Positions 1 through 6,350 of a stretch of DNA of 10,082 bases are shown here, one piece after another (within the stretch, counting starts at the first letter, position 1; the number at the start of each line of letters is the position of its first letter). The stretch is taken from IMG/VR virus record IMGVR_UViG_2541047688_000002. The stretch is one strand, 5' to 3'. Source of the stretch: a virus. Lineage: Duplodnaviria; Heunggongvirae; Uroviricota; Caudoviricetes. Under the pieces are notes generated by a model. It did no database searches and was not told the DNA's origin. It worked only from the letters and a program-made list of their open reading frames with translations. The translations under genes were made by a program, and so were the position numbers.

Positions 1-905
1 GTCCACATGCCCGTGTTTTCACAGATCCACCGCCCGTTACTCTGGTCAAGCTCAGACTGATGGATCACACAGCCATGATGCTCACAAAGGTAGAAAACAC
101 TTTCTGGCTTATTCTTCTCCCACTTAAGACCGAAAGGCGAGGCATCATCGCCAAATTTCAGATACTGCTCCTCCCCACAGTGCGGACAGGGCACATAAAA
201 ACGCATGAAGTGTGCCGACTCGTTAGCGGCTTTTTCGATCTGGCAGGAGCCTTTGATTTTAGGCGTCGAGCCGCGAATGGATTTTGGCCATACAGAGCCC
301 TCAATACGTTTATCCCCCAGCAGGGTTGGCGAACCCTCTTTTTCAACATCCGGTTCGAACGAGGAAAGCTCGTCATAACAGACCACATCCACGGATTTTT
401 CACGGTAGTTTTTTGCTGCCGCACCACCCAGACACCAGAACCCCACACCGGAGGAAAAACGCTTCAGGGTGAGCGTATTATCGCGGTGTTTTCTTCCGAA
501 CCATGGAGCCAGCTCCAGCAATGCAGGAACATCCCTTATCGTTGGCTCAACATGAGATTTCATAAAATCTTCAGCAGCTGAGTCCGTGGGCTGAAAAAGA
601 AGGCTGTTGCGTGATTTATGCTCAATAAAATAAGCCTCCACTCCCAGCAACATCTTTGTATAACCAACACGGGCAGATTTAATCAGGTTAACCGTGCGAA
701 TCAGATCGTTGCCCATACAGTTCATGATGCCAACCTGAAACGGCAGTGTTTCCCATCGCCCCGGGGTATAAGACGACTCTTTAGGAAGGTAATAATGTTT
801 ATTGGCCCACTGAACTGTCGTCAGTGGAACAGGAATAATGAGAGATAAAAGCCCTGTAGCTATCGCACCGGCTGCATTAGCTGCCTTCTGCGCGTCTGAA
901 ATCAT
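1..905 (-). CDS. A: Terminase large subunit (lambda gpA-like), N-terminal ~301 codons; CDS continues past the window start
   Basis: Minus-strand frame reads continuously from ATG (revcomp of 903-905) to position 1: [13 protein letters not shown]...[27 protein letters not shown]...[35 protein letters not shown]. These match lambda gpA as recalled (e.g. [44 protein letters not shown]). The ATG lies 26 nt upstream of the Nu1 stop, the same overlap as in lambda. Absent from the ORF track because it runs off the window. Confidence 0.9.
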
Positions 906-1425
906 CGATCCACCCGCCCACGTTTTCACCGGCCTTAGCTGCAACATTGGAGGCTTTCGCGATTTCAGTTTTCACCACATCAAGGTGTGATGGTGAAATG
1001 TCCGGATATTTACGCTGTAATGTCAACGGCACACGCACAAGTATCCCCGAAATCTCCTGTGCCACACGTTGCAGAATGAAGGTAAACAGTTCAGTTTCCA
1101 GCACTACTCCGTCTTCACGGGCATTTTTCAGTTCCTGCGCATCTGCCTGCGCTTTTGTGAGCCGGTAGCGTTCATAGTCAATGGTGCCGGGTTGTAAATC
1201 TGACTCCGCTGCCGCACGCAAATCGTCCAGTTCTTTGCGGAGCTTTTCGTTTTCGATATCAGTTTCCCTCTGCGCATACCACTGAATTGCCATGGCAGTA
1301 TCAAATACAGATTCAATGCCCTTACTGCCTTTGGAGACGCAAGGGAGCCCCTGAGACTGCCAGCGTTCAATCGTCCGCGGGTCCACGTTGAAAATTTCGG
1401 CAAGCCTCTTTTTATTAACCTTCAT
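877..1425 (-). CDS. nu1: Terminase small subunit (lambda Nu1-like; nohD/nohB-type)
   Basis: ORF-track protein [29 protein letters not shown]...[29 protein letters not shown] closely parallels lambda Nu1 (MEVNKKQLADIFGASIRTIQNWQEQGMP...[28 protein letters not shown]). ATG at 1423-1425 (revcomp); sits between cos and gpA. Confidence 0.9.
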
Positions 1426-1625
1426 GAAAACAACCCATTATCAAATACAAGGCCCGACATGAAAACGCCAGAAAAAGGCATTTTCGGACACTTTCATGTC
1501 GGACCTTTACGGATGCAATATTAAAAAAAACAAAAAGTTATATTCGAGAAGTACCGACACGATTTTCCCTGAAAAATTTTCATAAATAGTGAAAAACCGC
1601 GAGGTCGCCGCCCCGTAACCTGTTG
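1426..1625 (-). other. cos DNA-packaging site: cosB (1426-1591), cosN 12-nt cohesive-end sequence (1592-1603), cosQ side (1604-1625)
   Basis: Revcomp of 1592-1603 is GGGCGGCGACCT, the lambda cohesive-end sequence. The adjacent minus-strand sequence GGGCGGCGACCTCGCGGTTTTTCACTATTTATGAAAATTTT matches the lambda left end as recalled. Revcomp of 1604-1612 is CAGGTTACG, as at the lambda right end. cosB holds inverted 11-bp repeats CCGACATGAAA (1454-1464) / TTTCATGTCGG (1493-1503) and an A-tract at 1524-1531, consistent with Nu1 R-sites and an IHF bend. Confidence 0.8.
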
Positions 1626-1761
1626 GATCGACGGAAAGGACCCGAAAACGAGAATAATTATCACTTACAGCAAGAATCGAATCTGATCTATTATGGTGCT
1701 TGCTATTATGTGCCGGCACAAGTGCGTCGTTTACCGTCATTTCACACAGAGGCATCATCAA

Positions 1762-2013
1762 ATGAAAATCAGAAATATTCTCGCTATCTCCCTTGCGACA
1801 TCATCCTTCAGTTGCCTGGCATTTAAATCCTCGCCCAATGTGCTACCAGGACCAACGAATCAACTAACTGCGGTAGAAAGTAAAATTATCGGACATTTTT
1901 ATGCCCCACACAGTACATTACCCGGAACAACCATCACAGGGACATGTGACGCCTCCCCCGTCCCGGGATGCACCTGTCCGTTTTGTACTATGCTGCGTAG
2001 CCAAAACCGATAA
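1762..2013 (+). CDS. Hypothetical small secreted protein (83 aa) with a Cys-rich C-terminus
   Basis: ATG at 1762 with AGAGG 10 nt upstream. N-terminus MKIRNILAISLATSSFSCLA looks like a signal peptide; C-terminus TGTCDASPVPGCTCPFC. Overlaps an alternative frame (1901-2074), so coding status is uncertain. Confidence 0.3.
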   Translation: MKIRNILAISLATSSFSCLAFKSSPNVLPGPTNQLTAVESKIIGHFYAPHSTLPGTTITGTCDASPVPGCTCPFCTMLRSQNR

Positions 2014-2074
2014 CATCCGCATTTACCTGGTATTCCATGATGAGTTCACGCAGCGACTGATAGAGGAAGGAAAG

Positions 2075-2254
2075 ATGGTTAGTAAAAGCAAGGCGCATTG
2101 CCGCCGCATGCTGCAGGCATTGCAACAGACGAGAGCAGGTATTTTTGACCAGTTGGAAAACTGCCAGCATACTTTGCCCGAGTATATCGCCATCTCATCG
2201 GAAACCAGTGCAACTCTTATTCATCGGGTTCCACCAGAGAAAAAGAAGAAATGA
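2075..2254 (+). CDS. Hypothetical 59-aa basic protein
   Basis: Strong SD GAGGAAGGAAAG immediately upstream of ATG 2075. Protein MVSKSKAHCRRMLQALQQTRAGIFDQLENCQHTLPEYIAISSETSATLIHRVPPEKKKK. Stop TGA overlaps the next ATG (ATGA at 2251-2254). Confidence 0.4.
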   Translation: MVSKSKAHCRRMLQALQQTRAGIFDQLENCQHTLPEYIAISSETSATLIHRVPPEKKKK

Positions 2255-2388
2255 ACAGTGAGGCGTTGTGTGGCATACAACGCCTTCTTCCATCATTCCT
2301 CGTCAGCCATGACAAAAATATAACCGCTGGCTCTTTCATTTTTCTCCTGCTTCCAGCCCCTCTCTACCTGGAAGCATCAAGGACGTGA
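2251..2388 (+). CDS. Hypothetical 45-aa hydrophobic peptide, translationally coupled to the upstream ORF
   Basis: ATG 2251-2253 overlaps the upstream stop (ATGA). Translation MNSEALCGIQRLLPSFLVSHDKNITAGSFIFLLLPAPLYLEASRT has a hydrophobic core. Below the ORF-track length cutoff. The 3' end overlaps the convergent lipoprotein gene by 12 nt. Confidence 0.3.
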   Translation: MNSEALCGIQRLLPSFLVSHDKNITAGSFIFLLLPAPLYLEASRT

Positions 2389-2703
2389 CGGCGTAAAGAT
2401 AAATTGTCTCTTCACTCCCTGACAGGGGCGATTCTTTTCAAATCGCCATTTCGCCATGGCCTTCACCACTTCATCACGAAACAAATTATGAGGCTCTGAG
2501 CGGAGAAAAACGATCCGTGTCACAGTCCCATCAGCACCAATATCGAACTTAACCTCAACCAGCCCCTTGATATAATTTGCTGCAGCATATTCCGGATATC
2601 GTGGATACACCGTCACTAATTGCCGGGGCTCATCAGCTTTTTGCTGCGAGCATCCCACTGCCAGGACAGATAACAGAAAAAGTAGTAAAAGGCGTCTTTT
2701 CAT
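2377..2703 (-). CDS. Prophage lipoprotein with a TonB C-terminal-domain fold (candidate TonB-CTD decoy); start at internal Met 19 of the track ORF
   Basis: ATG at 2701-2703 (revcomp) with AGGA 6 nt upstream. Signal peptide plus lipobox MKRRLLLLFLLSVLAVG|CSQQ (Ser at +2). Mature region YPRYPEYAAANYIKGLVEVKFDIGADGTVTRIVFLRSEPHNLFRDEVVKAMAKWRFE aligns with the E. coli TonB C-terminal domain as recalled ([54 protein letters not shown]). Confidence 0.75.
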   Translation of the reverse strand: MKRRLLLLFLLSVLAVGCSQQKADEPRQLVTVYPRYPEYAAANYIKGLVEVKFDIGADGTVTRIVFLRSEPHNLFRDEVVKAMAKWRFEKNRPCQGVKRQFIFTPSRP

Positions 2704-3183
2704 TTTTATTCCTACGGGTCTTATTCTGACAATATATCCTGTGTTCCAGACTGCCACATCACCACATCCTGTGCCATTATCTGACTCACATTACATACAT
2801 CGCATCGGGATACAGTAGTAGCACTTTCTGTAATACAGCTTCCTGTTTCTTCCACCATCGCACCGGGATAAACCCGCGAATCATTAACGCGGTAAAAACC
2901 CGGTGTGCATCGTTTTTAATTATTCCCGCACACTCACGCAGAAGGAATTCCCCGTCGGGCTACGGTCATGGTTAATGCGGGAATACGGCGACGATACAGC
3001 GCAGCTAAAAGGGTAATGGACGGATAGACCGGTTTATTTCATTCCACAGGATTCTGAGTGTCCCCAACTTCCTCCAATAGTCTGAGCCCACCTGTGTAGT
3101 TTTAATTTTCATCAATCCATTTAACTATCGTTTAATTGTTGTCACATAGGATTCTGCCGTTTTTAACAATGCAGGATAATAAG

Positions 3184-3477
3184 ATGAAAAAAATGTTGTT
3201 TTCTGCCGCTCTGGCAATGCTTATTACAGGATGTGCTCAACAGACGTTTACTGTTGGAAACAAACCTACAGCAGTAACACCAAAGGAAACCATCACCCAT
3301 CATTTCTTCGTTTCGGGAATTGGGCAGAAGAAAACTGTCGATGCAGCAAAAATTTGTGGTGGTGCAGAAAATGTTGTTAAAACAGAAACCCAGCAAACAT
3401 TCGTAAATGGATTGCTCGGTTTTATTACTTTAGGCATTTATACTCCGCTGGAAGCGCGTGTGTATTGCTCACAATAA
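3184..3477 (+). CDS. bor: Bor outer-membrane lipoprotein (serum-resistance lysogenic conversion protein)
   Basis: MKKMLFSAALAMLITGCAQQTFTVGNKPTAVTPKETITHHFFVSGIGQKKTVDAAKICGGAENVVKTETQQTFVNGLLGFITLGIYTPLEARVYCSQ is near-identical to lambda Bor as recalled. Lipobox LITGC; AGGA 7 nt upstream of ATG 3184. The track ORF begins further upstream at 3136. Confidence 0.9.
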   Translation: MKKMLFSAALAMLITGCAQQTFTVGNKPTAVTPKETITHHFFVSGIGQKKTVDAAKICGGAENVVKTETQQTFVNGLLGFITLGIYTPLEARVYCSQ

Positions 3478-5267: not shown

Positions 5268-6350
5268 ATGAAAAAATTAACAGTGGCAATTTCTGCTGTA
5301 GCTGCATCAGTACTGATGGCGATGTCTGCTCAGGCAGCTGAAATTTATAATAAAGACAGTAACAAGCTGGATCTATACGGGAAAGTTAATGCCAAGCACT
5401 ACTTCTCCTCTAATGATGCAGATGATGGTGATACTACTTATGCCCGTCTTGGCTTCAAAGGTGAAACCCAAATCAACGATCAACTGACTGGTTTCGGTCA
5501 GTGGGAATATGAATTCAAAGGCAACCGTGCTGAATCTCAAGGTTCTTCCAAAGACAAAACCCGTCTTGCATTTGCAGGCCTGAAATTTGGTGATTACGGC
5601 TCAATCGATTACGGCCGTAACTACGGTGTAGCATACGACATCGGTGCGTGGACTGACGTTCTGCCAGAATTCGGTGGTGATACCTGGACCCAAACAGATG
5701 TGTTCATGACTGGTCGCACTACTGGTGTTGCAACTTATCGTAACAACGACTTCTTTGGTCTGGTCGATGGCCTGAACTTTGCTGCTCAGTATCAGGGTAA
5801 AAATGACCGCACTGACGTAACTGAAGCCAATGGTGATGGTTTCGGTTTCTCCACTACTTATGAGTATGAAGGATTCGGCGTGGGTGCAACCTATGCTAAA
5901 TCAGATCGCACTGACGGTCAGGTCGCCTATGGTAAGAGCAAATTCAATGCCTCCGGCAAAAATGCGGAAGTATGGGCTGCAGGCCTGAAATATGATGCGA
6001 ACAATATCTATCTGGCTACCACATATTCTGAAACTCAGAATATGACCGTTTTTGGTAATAACCATATTGCAAACAAAGCACAAAACTTTGAAGCAGTAGC
6101 ACAATATCAGTTTGACTTCGGTCTGCGTCCATCTGTTGCTTACCTTCAGTCAAAAGGTAAAGACCTTGGTGTTCATGGTGACCGAGACTTAGTCAAGTAT
6201 GTCGATGTCGGTGCTACTTACTACTTTAATAAAAACATGTCCACTTTTGTTGATTACAAAATCAACTTAATTGACGATAGTAAGTTTACCAAAACAGCTG
6301 GTATTGATACCGACGACATCGTCGCTGTAGGTCTGGTTTATCAGTTCTAA
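5268..6350 (+). CDS. nmpC: General diffusion porin of the OmpC/OmpF/PhoE family, prophage-encoded (NmpC / Lc-type)
   Basis: Signal peptide [23 protein letters not shown]|AEIYNK; porin hallmarks ([17 protein letters not shown]..., C-terminal VAVGLVYQF ending in Phe). Position between Q and S matches nmpC in DLP12 and lc in PA-2. The track ORF begins at 5208, but 5268 gives a proper signal peptide and an AAGGG SD. Confidence 0.9.

What the first reader, a model, noticed from the sequence alone, without database searches (positions are those of the whole stretch)
1762..2388. Three small coupled ORFs between cos and the lipoprotein gene: uncharacterised moron operon
On the plus strand, opposite to the late genes, sit a putative secreted Cys-rich 83-aa protein, a 59-aa basic protein with a very strong SD, and a 45-aa hydrophobic peptide. 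The last two are coupled by an ATGA stop/start overlap at 2251-2254. The operon converges on the TonB-CTD lipoprotein gene with a 12-nt overlap. The cos-proximal end of lambdoid late regions is a known hotspot for accessory cargo; a small basic protein plus a hydrophobic peptide could be a regulator/effector or toxin-like pair. None is recognisable to me.
Basis: seen in the sequence. Interest (0 to 1): 0.5.

Follow-up and report, generated by a model that had tools for sequence, protein, structure and literature searches.

The report
One real secreted-protein gene, two doubtful ORFs
Of the three small reading frames next to the packaging site of this phage-21-type E. coli prophage, only the first is a demonstrably real gene, for a small exported four-cysteine protein of unknown function that reference annotations miss; the other two lie in a stretch of DNA with no relatives elsewhere and no sign of selection.

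Summary
The window is a phage-21-type lambdoid prophage (100% identical to the right end of phage 21, and to CFT073 and Nissle 1917). The three plus-strand ORFs exist as described, except that ORF B starts at 2075.

ORF A (1762-2013) is a genuine gene.
- Homologs of 76-85 aa occur across Enterobacterales.
- dN/dS is 0.1-0.28 with saturated dS.
- The Shine-Dalgarno site is conserved, and homology stops at or within 10 nt of its stop codon.
- It has a Sec signal peptide with an invariant Ala20|Phe21 site and four invariant cysteines (C-x7-C-x-C-x2-C).
- It moves as a single-gene cassette among prophage cos-proximal slots, Klebsiella conjugative plasmids, Salmonella islands and chromosomes.
- It has no Pfam, NCBIfam, PHROG or PDB match, and is unannotated in phage 21, in RefSeq CFT073 and on the listed Klebsiella plasmids.

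ORFs B and C lie in a 363-bp segment (2014-2376) found only in near-identical E. coli copies (at least 96% identity). They never accompany ORF A or the TonB gene elsewhere. B carries two independent frameshifts, and its substitutions look neutral. The antisense ORF that RefSeq and the phage 21 annotators call (1988-2170, minus strand) has a nonsense allele in 53 of 156 copies.

The "three-gene operon / toxin-like pair" reading is not supported. The "uncharacterised moron" reading holds for ORF A alone.

The parts
1637..1643 (-). cosQ (GGGTCCT on the late strand). The right end of the phage 21 genome maps to window 1614.
   Evidence: Phage 21 annotation OL657228 mapped onto the window; conserved with lambda and other lambdoid loci.
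1644..1662 (.). Fur-box-like AT-rich palindrome next to cosQ (GAAAACGAGAATAATTATC). It lies about 100 nt upstream of ORF A. It may be a cos element or an operator; this is unresolved.
   Evidence: Matches the Fur consensus at 15 of 19 positions, the only such hit in the 10-kb window. Better copies sit at the same place in L008, L021 and lambda.
1748..1752 (+). Shine-Dalgarno site of ORF A (AGAGG, 9 nt before the ATG).
   Evidence: A purine-rich GGAG/GAGG/AAGG box followed by an ATCATCA[AG]ATGAAA-like stretch (exact in five of the eight loci compared).
1762..2013 (+). ORF A: the real gene. 83-aa pre-protein of an uncharacterised Enterobacterales family of small exported Cys4 proteins.
   Evidence: Homologs at 27-77% identity, 76-85 aa. 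dN/dS 0.10-0.28. Intact in 71 of 71 IMG/VR copies. Only 2 of 1223 complete E. coli genomes carry the C-run frameshift.
1762..1821 (+). Sec-type signal peptide (MKIRNILAISLATSSFSCLA). Predicted signal peptidase I cleavage between Ala20 and Phe21.
   Evidence: Ala20 and Phe21 are invariant in 27 family members, and the n-region and h-region pattern is conserved. The cleavage site is inferred from the -3/-1 rule, not tested.
1945..1986 (+). Invariant four-cysteine motif C62-x7-C70-x-C72-x2-C75 (GTCDASPVPGCTCPFC). The CPFC sequence sits at the start of a predicted helix.
   Evidence: Invariant columns in alignment A3. Helix 73-81 in the low-confidence AF2 model.
2014..2376 (.). Orphan spacer between the convergent ORF A and TonB-CTD genes. 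It is specific to phage-21-type E. coli elements and contains ORFs B and C and the antisense ORFs.
   Evidence: No DNA or protein similarity outside copies of at least 96% identity.
2075..2254 (+). ORF B, 59 aa (SD-like GAGGAAGGA at 2063-2071). Not supported as a conserved gene.
   Evidence: 8 nonsynonymous to 2 synonymous variants, plus two independent 1-bp indels. The frameshift allele is in 17 of 1188 complete genomes. Only self-derived PHROG 4843 matches.
2251..2388 (+). ORF C, 45 aa. Not supported as a gene. Its first codons run through a 12-bp hairpin and its last 12 nt overlap the TonB gene.
   Evidence: No homologs or families. 7 nonsynonymous to 4 synonymous variants. Hairpin.
2261..2285 (+). 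Stable hairpin (AGGCGTTGTGTG / CATACAACGCCT) 6 nt after the ORF B stop. Candidate 3' end of the ORF A transcript, but the U-tract is weak.
   Evidence: MFE -19.8 kcal/mol, z = -3.1. Inverted repeat I3. Not picked up by the terminator scan.
1988..2170 (-). Antisense 60-aa ORF annotated by RefSeq PGAP (WP_000881610) and as CPT_21_75 in phage 21. Probably a mis-call.
   Evidence: Annotations. Nonsense allele (2035 C>A) in 53 of 156 copies, 0 synonymous to 9 nonsynonymous variants, and a frameshift. Its good codon-usage score explains why gene callers pick it.
2217..2339 (-). Antisense 40-aa ORF annotated as CPT_21_74. No support.
   Evidence: Annotation. Nonsense and frameshift alleles. No family hits.
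2377..2703 (-). TonB C-terminal-domain lipoprotein gene (flanking gene, convergent with ORF A).
   Evidence: Pfam TonB_C E = 1e-12 and NCBIfam. pN/pS about 0.16 for variants seen in at least 2 loci. O157 homologs at 74% identity cover the CDS only.

Best explanation
The interval is not a three-gene operon. It has two parts.

(1) ORF A, an autonomous single-gene moron (1762-2013, plus strand, opposite to the late genes).
- It encodes an 83-aa precursor with a Sec signal peptide.
- Inferred steps: export to the periplasm, cleavage at Ala20|Phe21, and release of a protein of about 63 aa. Its four invariant cysteines (C-x7-C-x-C-x2-C, with a CxxC at a helix start) either form two disulfides or hold a metal ion.
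- Because it sits on the anti-late strand like bor, I infer it is expressed from its own promoter in the lysogen and acts in the cell envelope as a lysogenic-conversion factor. Its target is unknown.
- The gene travels alone between prophage cos-proximal slots, conjugative plasmids, genomic islands and chromosomes of Enterobacterales.

(2) A 363-bp spacer with no relatives elsewhere (2014-2376), between ORF A and the convergent TonB-CTD lipoprotein gene.
- ORFs B and C on the plus strand, and the annotated ORFs on the minus strand, are open by chance or as antisense shadows of each other.
- None is under detectable selection.
- The hairpin at 2261-2285 may mark the 3' end of the ORF A transcript.

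Shown: ORF A's conservation, its purifying selection, its motif, its mobility as a single gene, and the lack of any relative for B and C. Inferred: export, cleavage, disulfide or metal chemistry, expression in the lysogen, and the non-functionality of B and C.
For: Identity of the locus: 100% identical to phage 21, CFT073 and Nissle 1917. The region is present in 1223 of 5426 complete E. coli genomes.

ORF A:
- 115 profile hits, almost all 76-85 aa, in Escherichia, Salmonella, Citrobacter, Klebsiella, Enterobacter, Serratia, Pantoea, Dickeya, Erwinia, Buttiauxella and others.
- Invariant A20, F21, C62, C70, C72, C75.
- Pairwise dN/dS 0.10-0.28 with saturated dS.
- Conserved Shine-Dalgarno site.
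- DNA homology to Salmonella starts 8 nt before the ATG and ends at the stop codon; in C. koseri and the other E. coli prophages it ends within 10 nt of the stop.
- No conserved neighbour across about eleven contexts.
- Present on 73 plasmids, 63 of them conjugative.

B and C:
- No relative in species-representative genomes.
- Only copies of at least 96% identity in E. coli genomes, phages, plasmids, IMG/VR and metagenomes.
- O157 TonB homologs lack the spacer.
- B has a 1-bp insertion in one lineage and a 1-bp deletion in another, with 8 nonsynonymous to 2 synonymous variants.
- C has 7 nonsynonymous to 4 synonymous variants.
- The antisense 60-aa ORF is nonsense in 53 of 156 copies.
- No Pfam, NCBIfam or PADLOC hits and no Rfam hit.
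Against: - B is intact in about 96-98% of copies. It has a well-placed strong Shine-Dalgarno site, sits 62 nt downstream of ORF A with no predicted terminator between them, and is followed by a hairpin. That layout would also fit a two-gene A-B transcript.
- The copies are so similar (at most 3% divergence, about 10 variable sites per ORF) that pN/pS for B (about 0.66) and C (about 0.5) cannot be distinguished from either neutrality or moderate constraint.
- No expression data were available.
- No promoter for ORF A was identified.
- The structure model is of low confidence (pLDDT 42 and 58), so the fold and the cysteine chemistry are guesses.
- ORF A's own codon usage is atypical, so codon statistics cannot rule B or C in or out.
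Confidence: 0.7

Rival explanations
1. One reading: A, B and C (or at least A and B) form a lysogen-expressed moron operon. B and C would be young, lineage-restricted small proteins, translationally coupled through the ATGA overlap, acting as a regulator/effector or toxin-like pair.
For: Strong Shine-Dalgarno site before B and an ATGA stop/start overlap. No terminator predicted between A and B. B is intact in 68 of 71 IMG/VR copies and about 98.6% of complete-genome copies, and C is intact in all 71. B is better preserved than its antisense rival.
Against: No homolog of B or C anywhere outside near-clonal copies. ORF A homologs never carry them. Two independent frameshifts in B and a neutral-looking 8 nonsynonymous to 2 synonymous variants. 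ORF C starts 9 nt before a 12-bp hairpin, has no good Shine-Dalgarno site and no transmembrane-length hydrophobic stretch. No toxin-antitoxin or defence hits.
Confidence: 0.15
2. The database annotation is right: the real genes are on the late (minus) strand, namely the 60-aa ORF at 1988-2170 and the 40-aa ORF at 2217-2339. They would be expressed as the tail of the late operon after the TonB gene.
For: Called by PGAP (WP_000881610) and by the phage 21 annotators. The 60-aa ORF has a codon-usage score typical of true genes (0.34 against a true-frame mean of 0.29). PHROG 3744 exists for it.
Against: The 60-aa ORF has a premature stop in 53 of 156 copies, 0 synonymous to 9 nonsynonymous variants, and a frameshift lineage. 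The 40-aa ORF has nonsense and frameshift alleles. The 60-aa ORF overlaps the conserved 3' end of ORF A by 26 nt. It has no homologs outside near-identical copies, and the PHROG is built from those same copies.
Confidence: 0.05
3. The 2014-2376 segment is functional as RNA rather than protein. It could be a long 3' UTR or 3'-UTR-derived small RNA of ORF A ending at the 2261-2285 hairpin, or an antisense RNA to the late transcript that crosses cos.
For: A stable hairpin with z = -3.1. Convergent gene arrangement. Prophage-encoded small RNAs are known in this prophage family, for example svsR in NC-SV of strain NC101, which carries this region at 99.9% identity.
Against: No Rfam match. svsR maps to cI, not here. 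The hairpin lacks a proper U-tract. No covariation can be assessed because the copies are near-identical.
Confidence: 0.1

Closest known systems
Lambda bor / iss-type lysogenic-conversion morons
   Same: A small exported envelope protein encoded in the late region between the lysis genes and cos, on the strand opposite the late operon. ORF A is directly adjacent to a bor homolog in Salmonella islands and about 1.2 kb from iss/bor in this window.
   Different: No sequence similarity and no PF06291 hit. ORF A has no conserved lipobox: Cys18 is not conserved and the invariant site is Ala|Phe. Function is untested.
YlcI/YnfO (DUF3950) cos-proximal small ORF of lambda, DLP12, Qin and O157 prophages
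   Same: Occupies the same slot in the same orientation, just inside cosQ. In TA464-type prophages both genes are present in tandem.
   Different: YlcI has no signal peptide or cysteine motif, and there is no similarity between the two.
Small Sec-exported disulfide-rich peptides on mobile elements, such as the heat-stable enterotoxin STb precursor (recalled from memory; a lead only)
   Same: Architecture: a precursor of 70-85 aa, a cleavable signal peptide, a mature peptide with four cysteines, carried by mobile DNA of Enterobacteriaceae.
   Different: No detectable sequence or profile similarity in any library searched. As I recall it, the cysteine spacing differs. No toxin activity has been shown. 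Many family members are chromosomal in plant-associated and environmental genera.
Type I toxin / small hydrophobic toxic peptides
   Same: Small size, and a position next to another small ORF.
   Different: No hydrophobic stretch of transmembrane length, no family hit, no conservation.

Membership tests
Unnamed Enterobacterales family of small exported Cys4 proteins (e.g. UniRef A0A743PHQ3, S4YKY9; all annotated 'hypothetical') | Length of about 76-85 aa with full-length alignment to family members | tested here: met
   ORF A is 83 aa. Profile hits cover residues 1-83 with E-values down to 1e-33.
Unnamed Enterobacterales family of small exported Cys4 proteins | N-terminal signal peptide ending in an invariant Ala-Phe | tested here: met
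   A20 and F21 are invariant in 27 sequences. Actual cleavage was not tested.
Unnamed Enterobacterales family of small exported Cys4 proteins | C-terminal motif G-x-C-x7-C-x-C-x2-C-x2-L-R with four invariant cysteines | tested here: met
   C62, C70, C72 and C75 are invariant; G60, L78 and R79 are at least 90% conserved.
Unnamed Enterobacterales family of small exported Cys4 proteins | Evolves under purifying selection as a protein | tested here: met
   dN/dS 0.10-0.28 in all pairs where dS could be estimated.
Lambda Bor-like lipoproteins (PF06291) | Match to the Bor profile, and a lipobox | tested here: not met
   No Pfam hit for ORF A at E <= 1. There is no conserved lipobox cysteine.
Conserved operon / translationally coupled gene pair (A-B-C) | Stop/start overlap between B and C | tested here: met
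   ATGA at 2251-2254.
Conserved operon / translationally coupled gene pair (A-B-C) | Partners co-occur in related loci | tested here: not met
   B and C are absent from every diverged ORF A locus and from diverged TonB loci.
Conserved operon / translationally coupled gene pair (A-B-C) | Reading frames of B and C preserved with synonymous-biased change | tested here: inconclusive
   B: 8 nonsynonymous to 2 synonymous variants plus two frameshifts. C: 7 nonsynonymous to 4 synonymous, with a 1-bp insertion in one of 156 copies. There are only about 10 variable sites in each.
Toxin-antitoxin or anti-phage defence systems (PADLOC) | Match of any ORF to a known defence or toxin-antitoxin protein model | tested here: not met
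   No hits for A, B, C or the antisense ORFs at E <= 1.
Intrinsic terminator | GC-rich hairpin immediately followed by a U-tract | tested here: inconclusive
   A 12-bp hairpin at 2261-2285, z = -3.1, but it is followed by UCUUCCAUCAUU and was not called by the terminator scan.
Known RNA families (Rfam 15) | Covariance-model match | tested here: not met
   No match at E <= 1 anywhere in the window.

The most novel reading that the evidence does not exclude
ORF A would be the founding example of a previously undescribed class of periplasmic mini-proteins: about 60 aa, four invariant cysteines, a CxxC at a helix start. The class would be spread as a single-gene cassette by lambdoid phages, conjugative Klebsiella plasmids and Salmonella islands. 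It would alter envelope redox or metal handling, or surface resistance traits; in some contexts it sits beside bor/iss, TraT and omptin genes, and in others beside metal-uptake and Fur-family genes. A secondary, less likely novelty is that ORF B is a recently born phage-21-lineage gene.
Probability: 0.25. Interest if true: 0.6.

Novelty: new member of a known kind. Interest (0 to 1): 0.35.

Why it matters
- Prevalence. The ORF A region is in about 22% of complete E. coli genomes, including the uropathogen CFT073, ST131 strains, the adherent-invasive strain NC101, neonatal-meningitis and avian-pathogenic strains, and the probiotic Nissle 1917. It is also in classical phage 21 and on large conjugative Klebsiella plasmids.
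- Annotation. The reference annotations examined skip it: phage 21, RefSeq CFT073 and all 26 Klebsiella and Enterobacter plasmid records listed. Several of them instead call an antisense ORF that is a nonsense allele in a third of copies. Correcting this adds a real, exported, mobile small protein to the list of lysogenic-conversion candidates and removes spurious ones.
- Function. A four-cysteine periplasmic mini-protein that repeatedly travels next to serum-resistance and outer-membrane genes is a reasonable target for virulence or phage-resistance phenotyping.
- The other two ORFs. The negative result saves effort on a 'toxin pair' that the comparative data do not support.

Tried and rejected
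- svsR small RNA. The NC-SV prophage of strain NC101 is the same prophage family and carries this region at 99.9% identity, but svsR maps to the 3' end of cI. Not relevant here.
- Rfam scan of the whole window at E <= 1: nothing.
- Codon-usage log-odds test. ORF A, the true gene, scores like non-coding sequence, and the probably spurious antisense 60-aa ORF scores like a gene. The test does not discriminate for morons.
- Structure. AF2 with 11 and with 27 sequences gave pLDDT 42 and 58. Foldseek against PDB gave 0 hits. A profile search against PDB sequences gave 0 hits. The afdb50 library was unavailable.
- The spacer as a decayed gene. tblastx and blastn of 2014-2376 against all fetched loci, lambda and the O157 TonB locus found nothing significant. 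The plasmid collection held only identical E. coli copies.
- Search for diverged copies of ORF B. None in genome contigs; only copies of 88-100% protein identity in viral contigs and metagenome contigs.
- Fur box as the ORF A regulator. The palindrome is conserved with cosQ even in lambda, which lacks ORF A, and is absent upstream of non-phage ORF A homologs. It cannot be assigned to ORF A.
- C5-run phase variation of ORF A. Protein databases contain ORF A fusions created by a frameshift, but only 2 of 1223 complete genomes carry the deletion. These are probably rare mutations or sequencing errors.
- Literature searches for the peptide sequences and the WP accessions: no papers.
- The 117-aa ORF at 1901-2254 annotated in PhiR63_2. 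Its N-terminal half is an out-of-frame overlap of the conserved ORF A frame, so it is rejected.
Full report
**What the window is.**
Bases 1400-3000 are 100% identical to E. coli CFT073, Nissle 1917 and many other ExPEC chromosomes, and to the right end of phage 21. Mapping the phage 21 and RefSeq annotations gives the layout below. The minus strand is the late-gene strand.
- Nu1 (terminase small subunit): 877-1425 (-).
- cos: the phage 21 genome end maps to 1614, and cosQ is at 1637-1643.
- The finding: 1762-2388.
- TonB C-terminal-domain lipoprotein gene: 2377-2703 (-).
- bor/iss: 3184-3477 (+).
- Rz, R and S lysis genes (-).

**The observation.**
All three plus-strand ORFs exist.
- ORF A is 1762-2013 (83 aa), B is 2075-2254 (59 aa) and C is 2251-2388 (45 aa).
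- GAGGAAGGA lies 3 nt upstream of the B start codon.
- The ATGA overlap at 2251-2254 and the 12-nt overlap of C with the TonB gene are both real.
- Annotators disagree about this stretch. PGAP and the phage 21 curators call minus-strand ORFs at 1988-2170 (60 aa) and 2217-2339 (40 aa). PhiR63_2 calls a 117-aa plus-strand ORF at 1901-2254. None of the three annotations inspected in detail (phage 21, RefSeq CFT073, PhiR63_2) calls ORF A.

**ORF A is a real gene.**
- A protein search found homologs of 82-84 aa at 60-77% identity in Salmonella enterica subsp. salamae and indica, Citrobacter koseri and other E. coli prophages.
- Profile searches extended the family to Klebsiella, Enterobacter, Serratia, Pantoea, Dickeya, Erwinia, Rahnella, Phytobacter, Buttiauxella and others. 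There were 29 representatives in the HMMER search and 115 proteins in the profile search. Nearly all are 76-85 aa and all are named 'hypothetical'.
- In a 27-sequence alignment the invariant residues are Ala20, Phe21, Cys62, Cys70, Cys72 and Cys75.
- The family therefore has a classical Sec signal peptide (basic n-region, hydrophobic core, A-x-A-like site before Phe21), a variable linker, a conserved helix (ES.I...FY) and a C-terminal GTCxAxPVxGCxCPFCxxLR motif.
- Nei-Gojobori dN/dS between eight loci is 0.10-0.28 wherever dS can be estimated; elsewhere dS is saturated.
- The Shine-Dalgarno site is conserved, and an ATCATCA[AG]ATGAAA-like start context is exact in five of the eight loci.
- DNA similarity to the Salmonella locus starts 8 nt before the ATG and ends at the stop codon. 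In C. koseri and the other E. coli prophages it ends within 10 nt of the stop.
- ORF A is intact in 71 of 71 IMG/VR copies. A 1-nt deletion in its C5 run is present in only 2 of 1223 complete E. coli genomes.
- There is no Pfam, NCBIfam, PHROG, PADLOC or PDB-sequence match.
- AlphaFold models are of low confidence (pLDDT 42 and 58), predicting only helices at 33-47 and 73-81. Foldseek against PDB found nothing.

**ORF A is a stand-alone cassette.** Its contexts are listed here.
- Phage-21-type prophages (this window).
- Other E. coli lambdoid prophages, as Nu1-cos-ORF A followed by a 44-aa lipoprotein ORF and a YlcI/DUF3950 gene, or by a DUF1398 gene.
- Salmonella islands, as PPC-domain gene - ORF A - bor - omptin, next to NEL or SET effector genes.
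- A more distant Salmonella paralog lying after TraT and DUF1090 genes.
- C. koseri, between an acyltransferase gene and icd.
- Serratia and Dickeya, divergent from ABC transporter operons.
- IncF-type conjugative Klebsiella plasmids near Fur-family and CobW genes. It is on 73 plasmids in all; 64 carry copies at 60-80% identity, and the gene is unannotated in all 26 Klebsiella and Enterobacter records listed.
- Buttiauxella prophage and chromosome.
- No neighbour is conserved, so ORF A needs no partner encoded nearby.

**ORFs B and C.**
- The 363 bp between ORF A and the TonB gene (2014-2376) occur only in copies of at least 96% identity. This holds for E. coli genomes (1218-1223 of 5426), eight phage records, five E. 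coli plasmid-labelled records, 72 IMG/VR loci and 80 metagenome loci.
- The scan of species-representative genomes found no relative of B. The 5.8-billion-protein search found only near-identical or frameshifted versions.
- O157-type TonB homologs (74% identity) share only the TonB coding sequence and are followed by a YlcI gene instead.
- tblastx of the spacer against all other loci gave nothing.
- Pooling 156 copies gives the variant counts below.
  - B: 2 synonymous and 8 nonsynonymous variants, plus a 1-bp insertion at 2089-2091 (4 loci; 17 of 1188 complete genomes) and an independent 1-bp deletion at 2240.
  - C: 4 synonymous and 7 nonsynonymous variants, plus a 1-bp insertion in a single copy.
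  - Antisense 60-aa ORF: 0 synonymous and 9 nonsynonymous variants, a nonsense allele in 53 of 156 copies, and the frameshift.
  - Antisense 40-aa ORF: nonsense and frameshift alleles.
- Using only variants seen in at least 2 loci, pN/pS is about 0.16 for TonB, 0.33 for ORF A, 0.5 for C and 0.66 for B.
- The sample is shallow, so B and C are unsupported rather than disproved. The annotated antisense 60-aa ORF is effectively refuted as a conserved gene.
- B and the antisense 60-aa ORF overlap with codon position 2 opposite position 2. From general knowledge this is the register that favours shadow ORFs, so two long ORFs here do not double the evidence.
- ORF C begins 9 nt before a 12-bp hairpin (2261-2285, z = -3.1). 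It has no convincing Shine-Dalgarno site and no hydrophobic segment of transmembrane length.

**Mechanism proposed.**
- ORF A is a moron of the bor type. It is probably transcribed from the anti-late strand in lysogens (inferred from its orientation). Its product would be exported by Sec, cleaved at Ala20|Phe21, and folded in the periplasm around four invariant cysteines, either as two disulfides or as a metal site (CxxC at a helix N-terminus).
- Its target is unknown. Recurrent neighbours hint either at surface-resistance traits (bor/iss, TraT, omptin) or at metal handling (Fur-family and CobW genes, FecCD- and Nik/Opp-type transporters). Neither hint is consistent across contexts.
- The spacer most likely serves as the 3' untranslated region and end of the ORF A transcript, and as a buffer between convergent genes.

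**Comparison with known systems and novelty.**
- The closest known kinds are the lambda bor/lom morons and the YlcI cos-proximal ORF (same slot and orientation, no homology).
- From memory only, small Sec-exported disulfide peptides such as the STb precursor have a similar architecture, but there is no detectable similarity.
- The gene belongs to a database-visible but undescribed family, so I rate it a new member of a known kind (a phage moron). The practical consequence is an annotation correction.

**Verdict.**
ORF A is real, is an uncharacterised moron, and is secreted by prediction. The three-gene operon and the toxin-like pair are not supported.

Noticed in passing
window 1644-1662; L008 about 5861-5879; L021; lambda right end (L110 about 2150-2170, minus strand): An AT-rich palindrome resembling a Fur box (consensus-like TGATAATAATTATCA) sits immediately next to cosQ in phage 21, lambda and other lambdoid prophages, whichever moron follows. 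In this window it matches the Fur consensus at 15 of 19 positions, the only such hit in 10 kb. It could be a cos element or an iron-responsive operator for the cos-proximal moron.
   Followed up: partly
L005, L015, L017, about 100-120 nt after the ORF A homolog's stop codon: In the Salmonella islands a near-perfect palindrome, AAATGATAAAAATTATCATT (Fur-box-like), lies between the ORF A homolog and bor.
   Followed up: no
window 1988-2170 (-): The RefSeq PGAP protein WP_000881610/WP_000881608 and phage 21 CPT_21_75 (PHROG 3744) correspond to an antisense ORF that has a nonsense allele in about a third of copies. It overlaps the 3' end of the conserved but unannotated ORF A and is probably a systematic mis-annotation.
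   Followed up: yes
window 1507-1761 (-): An 84-aa ORF annotated in phage PhiR63_2, with a partial match to PHROG 11159, runs straight across cosN and cosQ. It is probably a spurious call on conserved cos DNA.
   Followed up: no
proteins P0047, P0051: Two long, N/S/T-rich, eukaryote-like proteins from metagenomes carry 4-5 tandem repeats of P[IL]PGCNCPKCT.LRN. This closely resembles ORF A's C-terminal PVPGCxCPFCTMLRS motif, suggesting that the CxCxxC unit is an independent mini-module.
   Followed up: no
L008 6345-6479 (+): TA464-type prophages have a 44-aa lipoprotein-like ORF (MKYFALISALLLSAC...) between the ORF A homolog and the YlcI-like gene. It was not called in the source annotation.
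   Followed up: no
window 2377-2703 (-) and L095 2484-2810: The TonB C-terminal-domain lipoprotein has a 74%-identical counterpart in O157-type prophages in the same slot but with different flanks. PHROGs files it under 'Rz-like spanin', which looks like a mislabel, since the match is to TonB_C.
   Followed up: partly
window 1709-1720: A perfect 12-bp palindrome, TGTGCCGGCACA, lies about 45 nt upstream of the ORF A start. TA464-type prophages have a different palindrome (GTTACGTGTTAACGTAAC) at the equivalent position. These are possible operator sites.
   Followed up: no
L004 6046-6300: In Citrobacter koseri the ORF A homolog lies right next to icd, the phage 21/e14 attachment gene, with no other phage genes called within 6 kb. 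It may be a remnant left by a decayed prophage.
   Followed up: no
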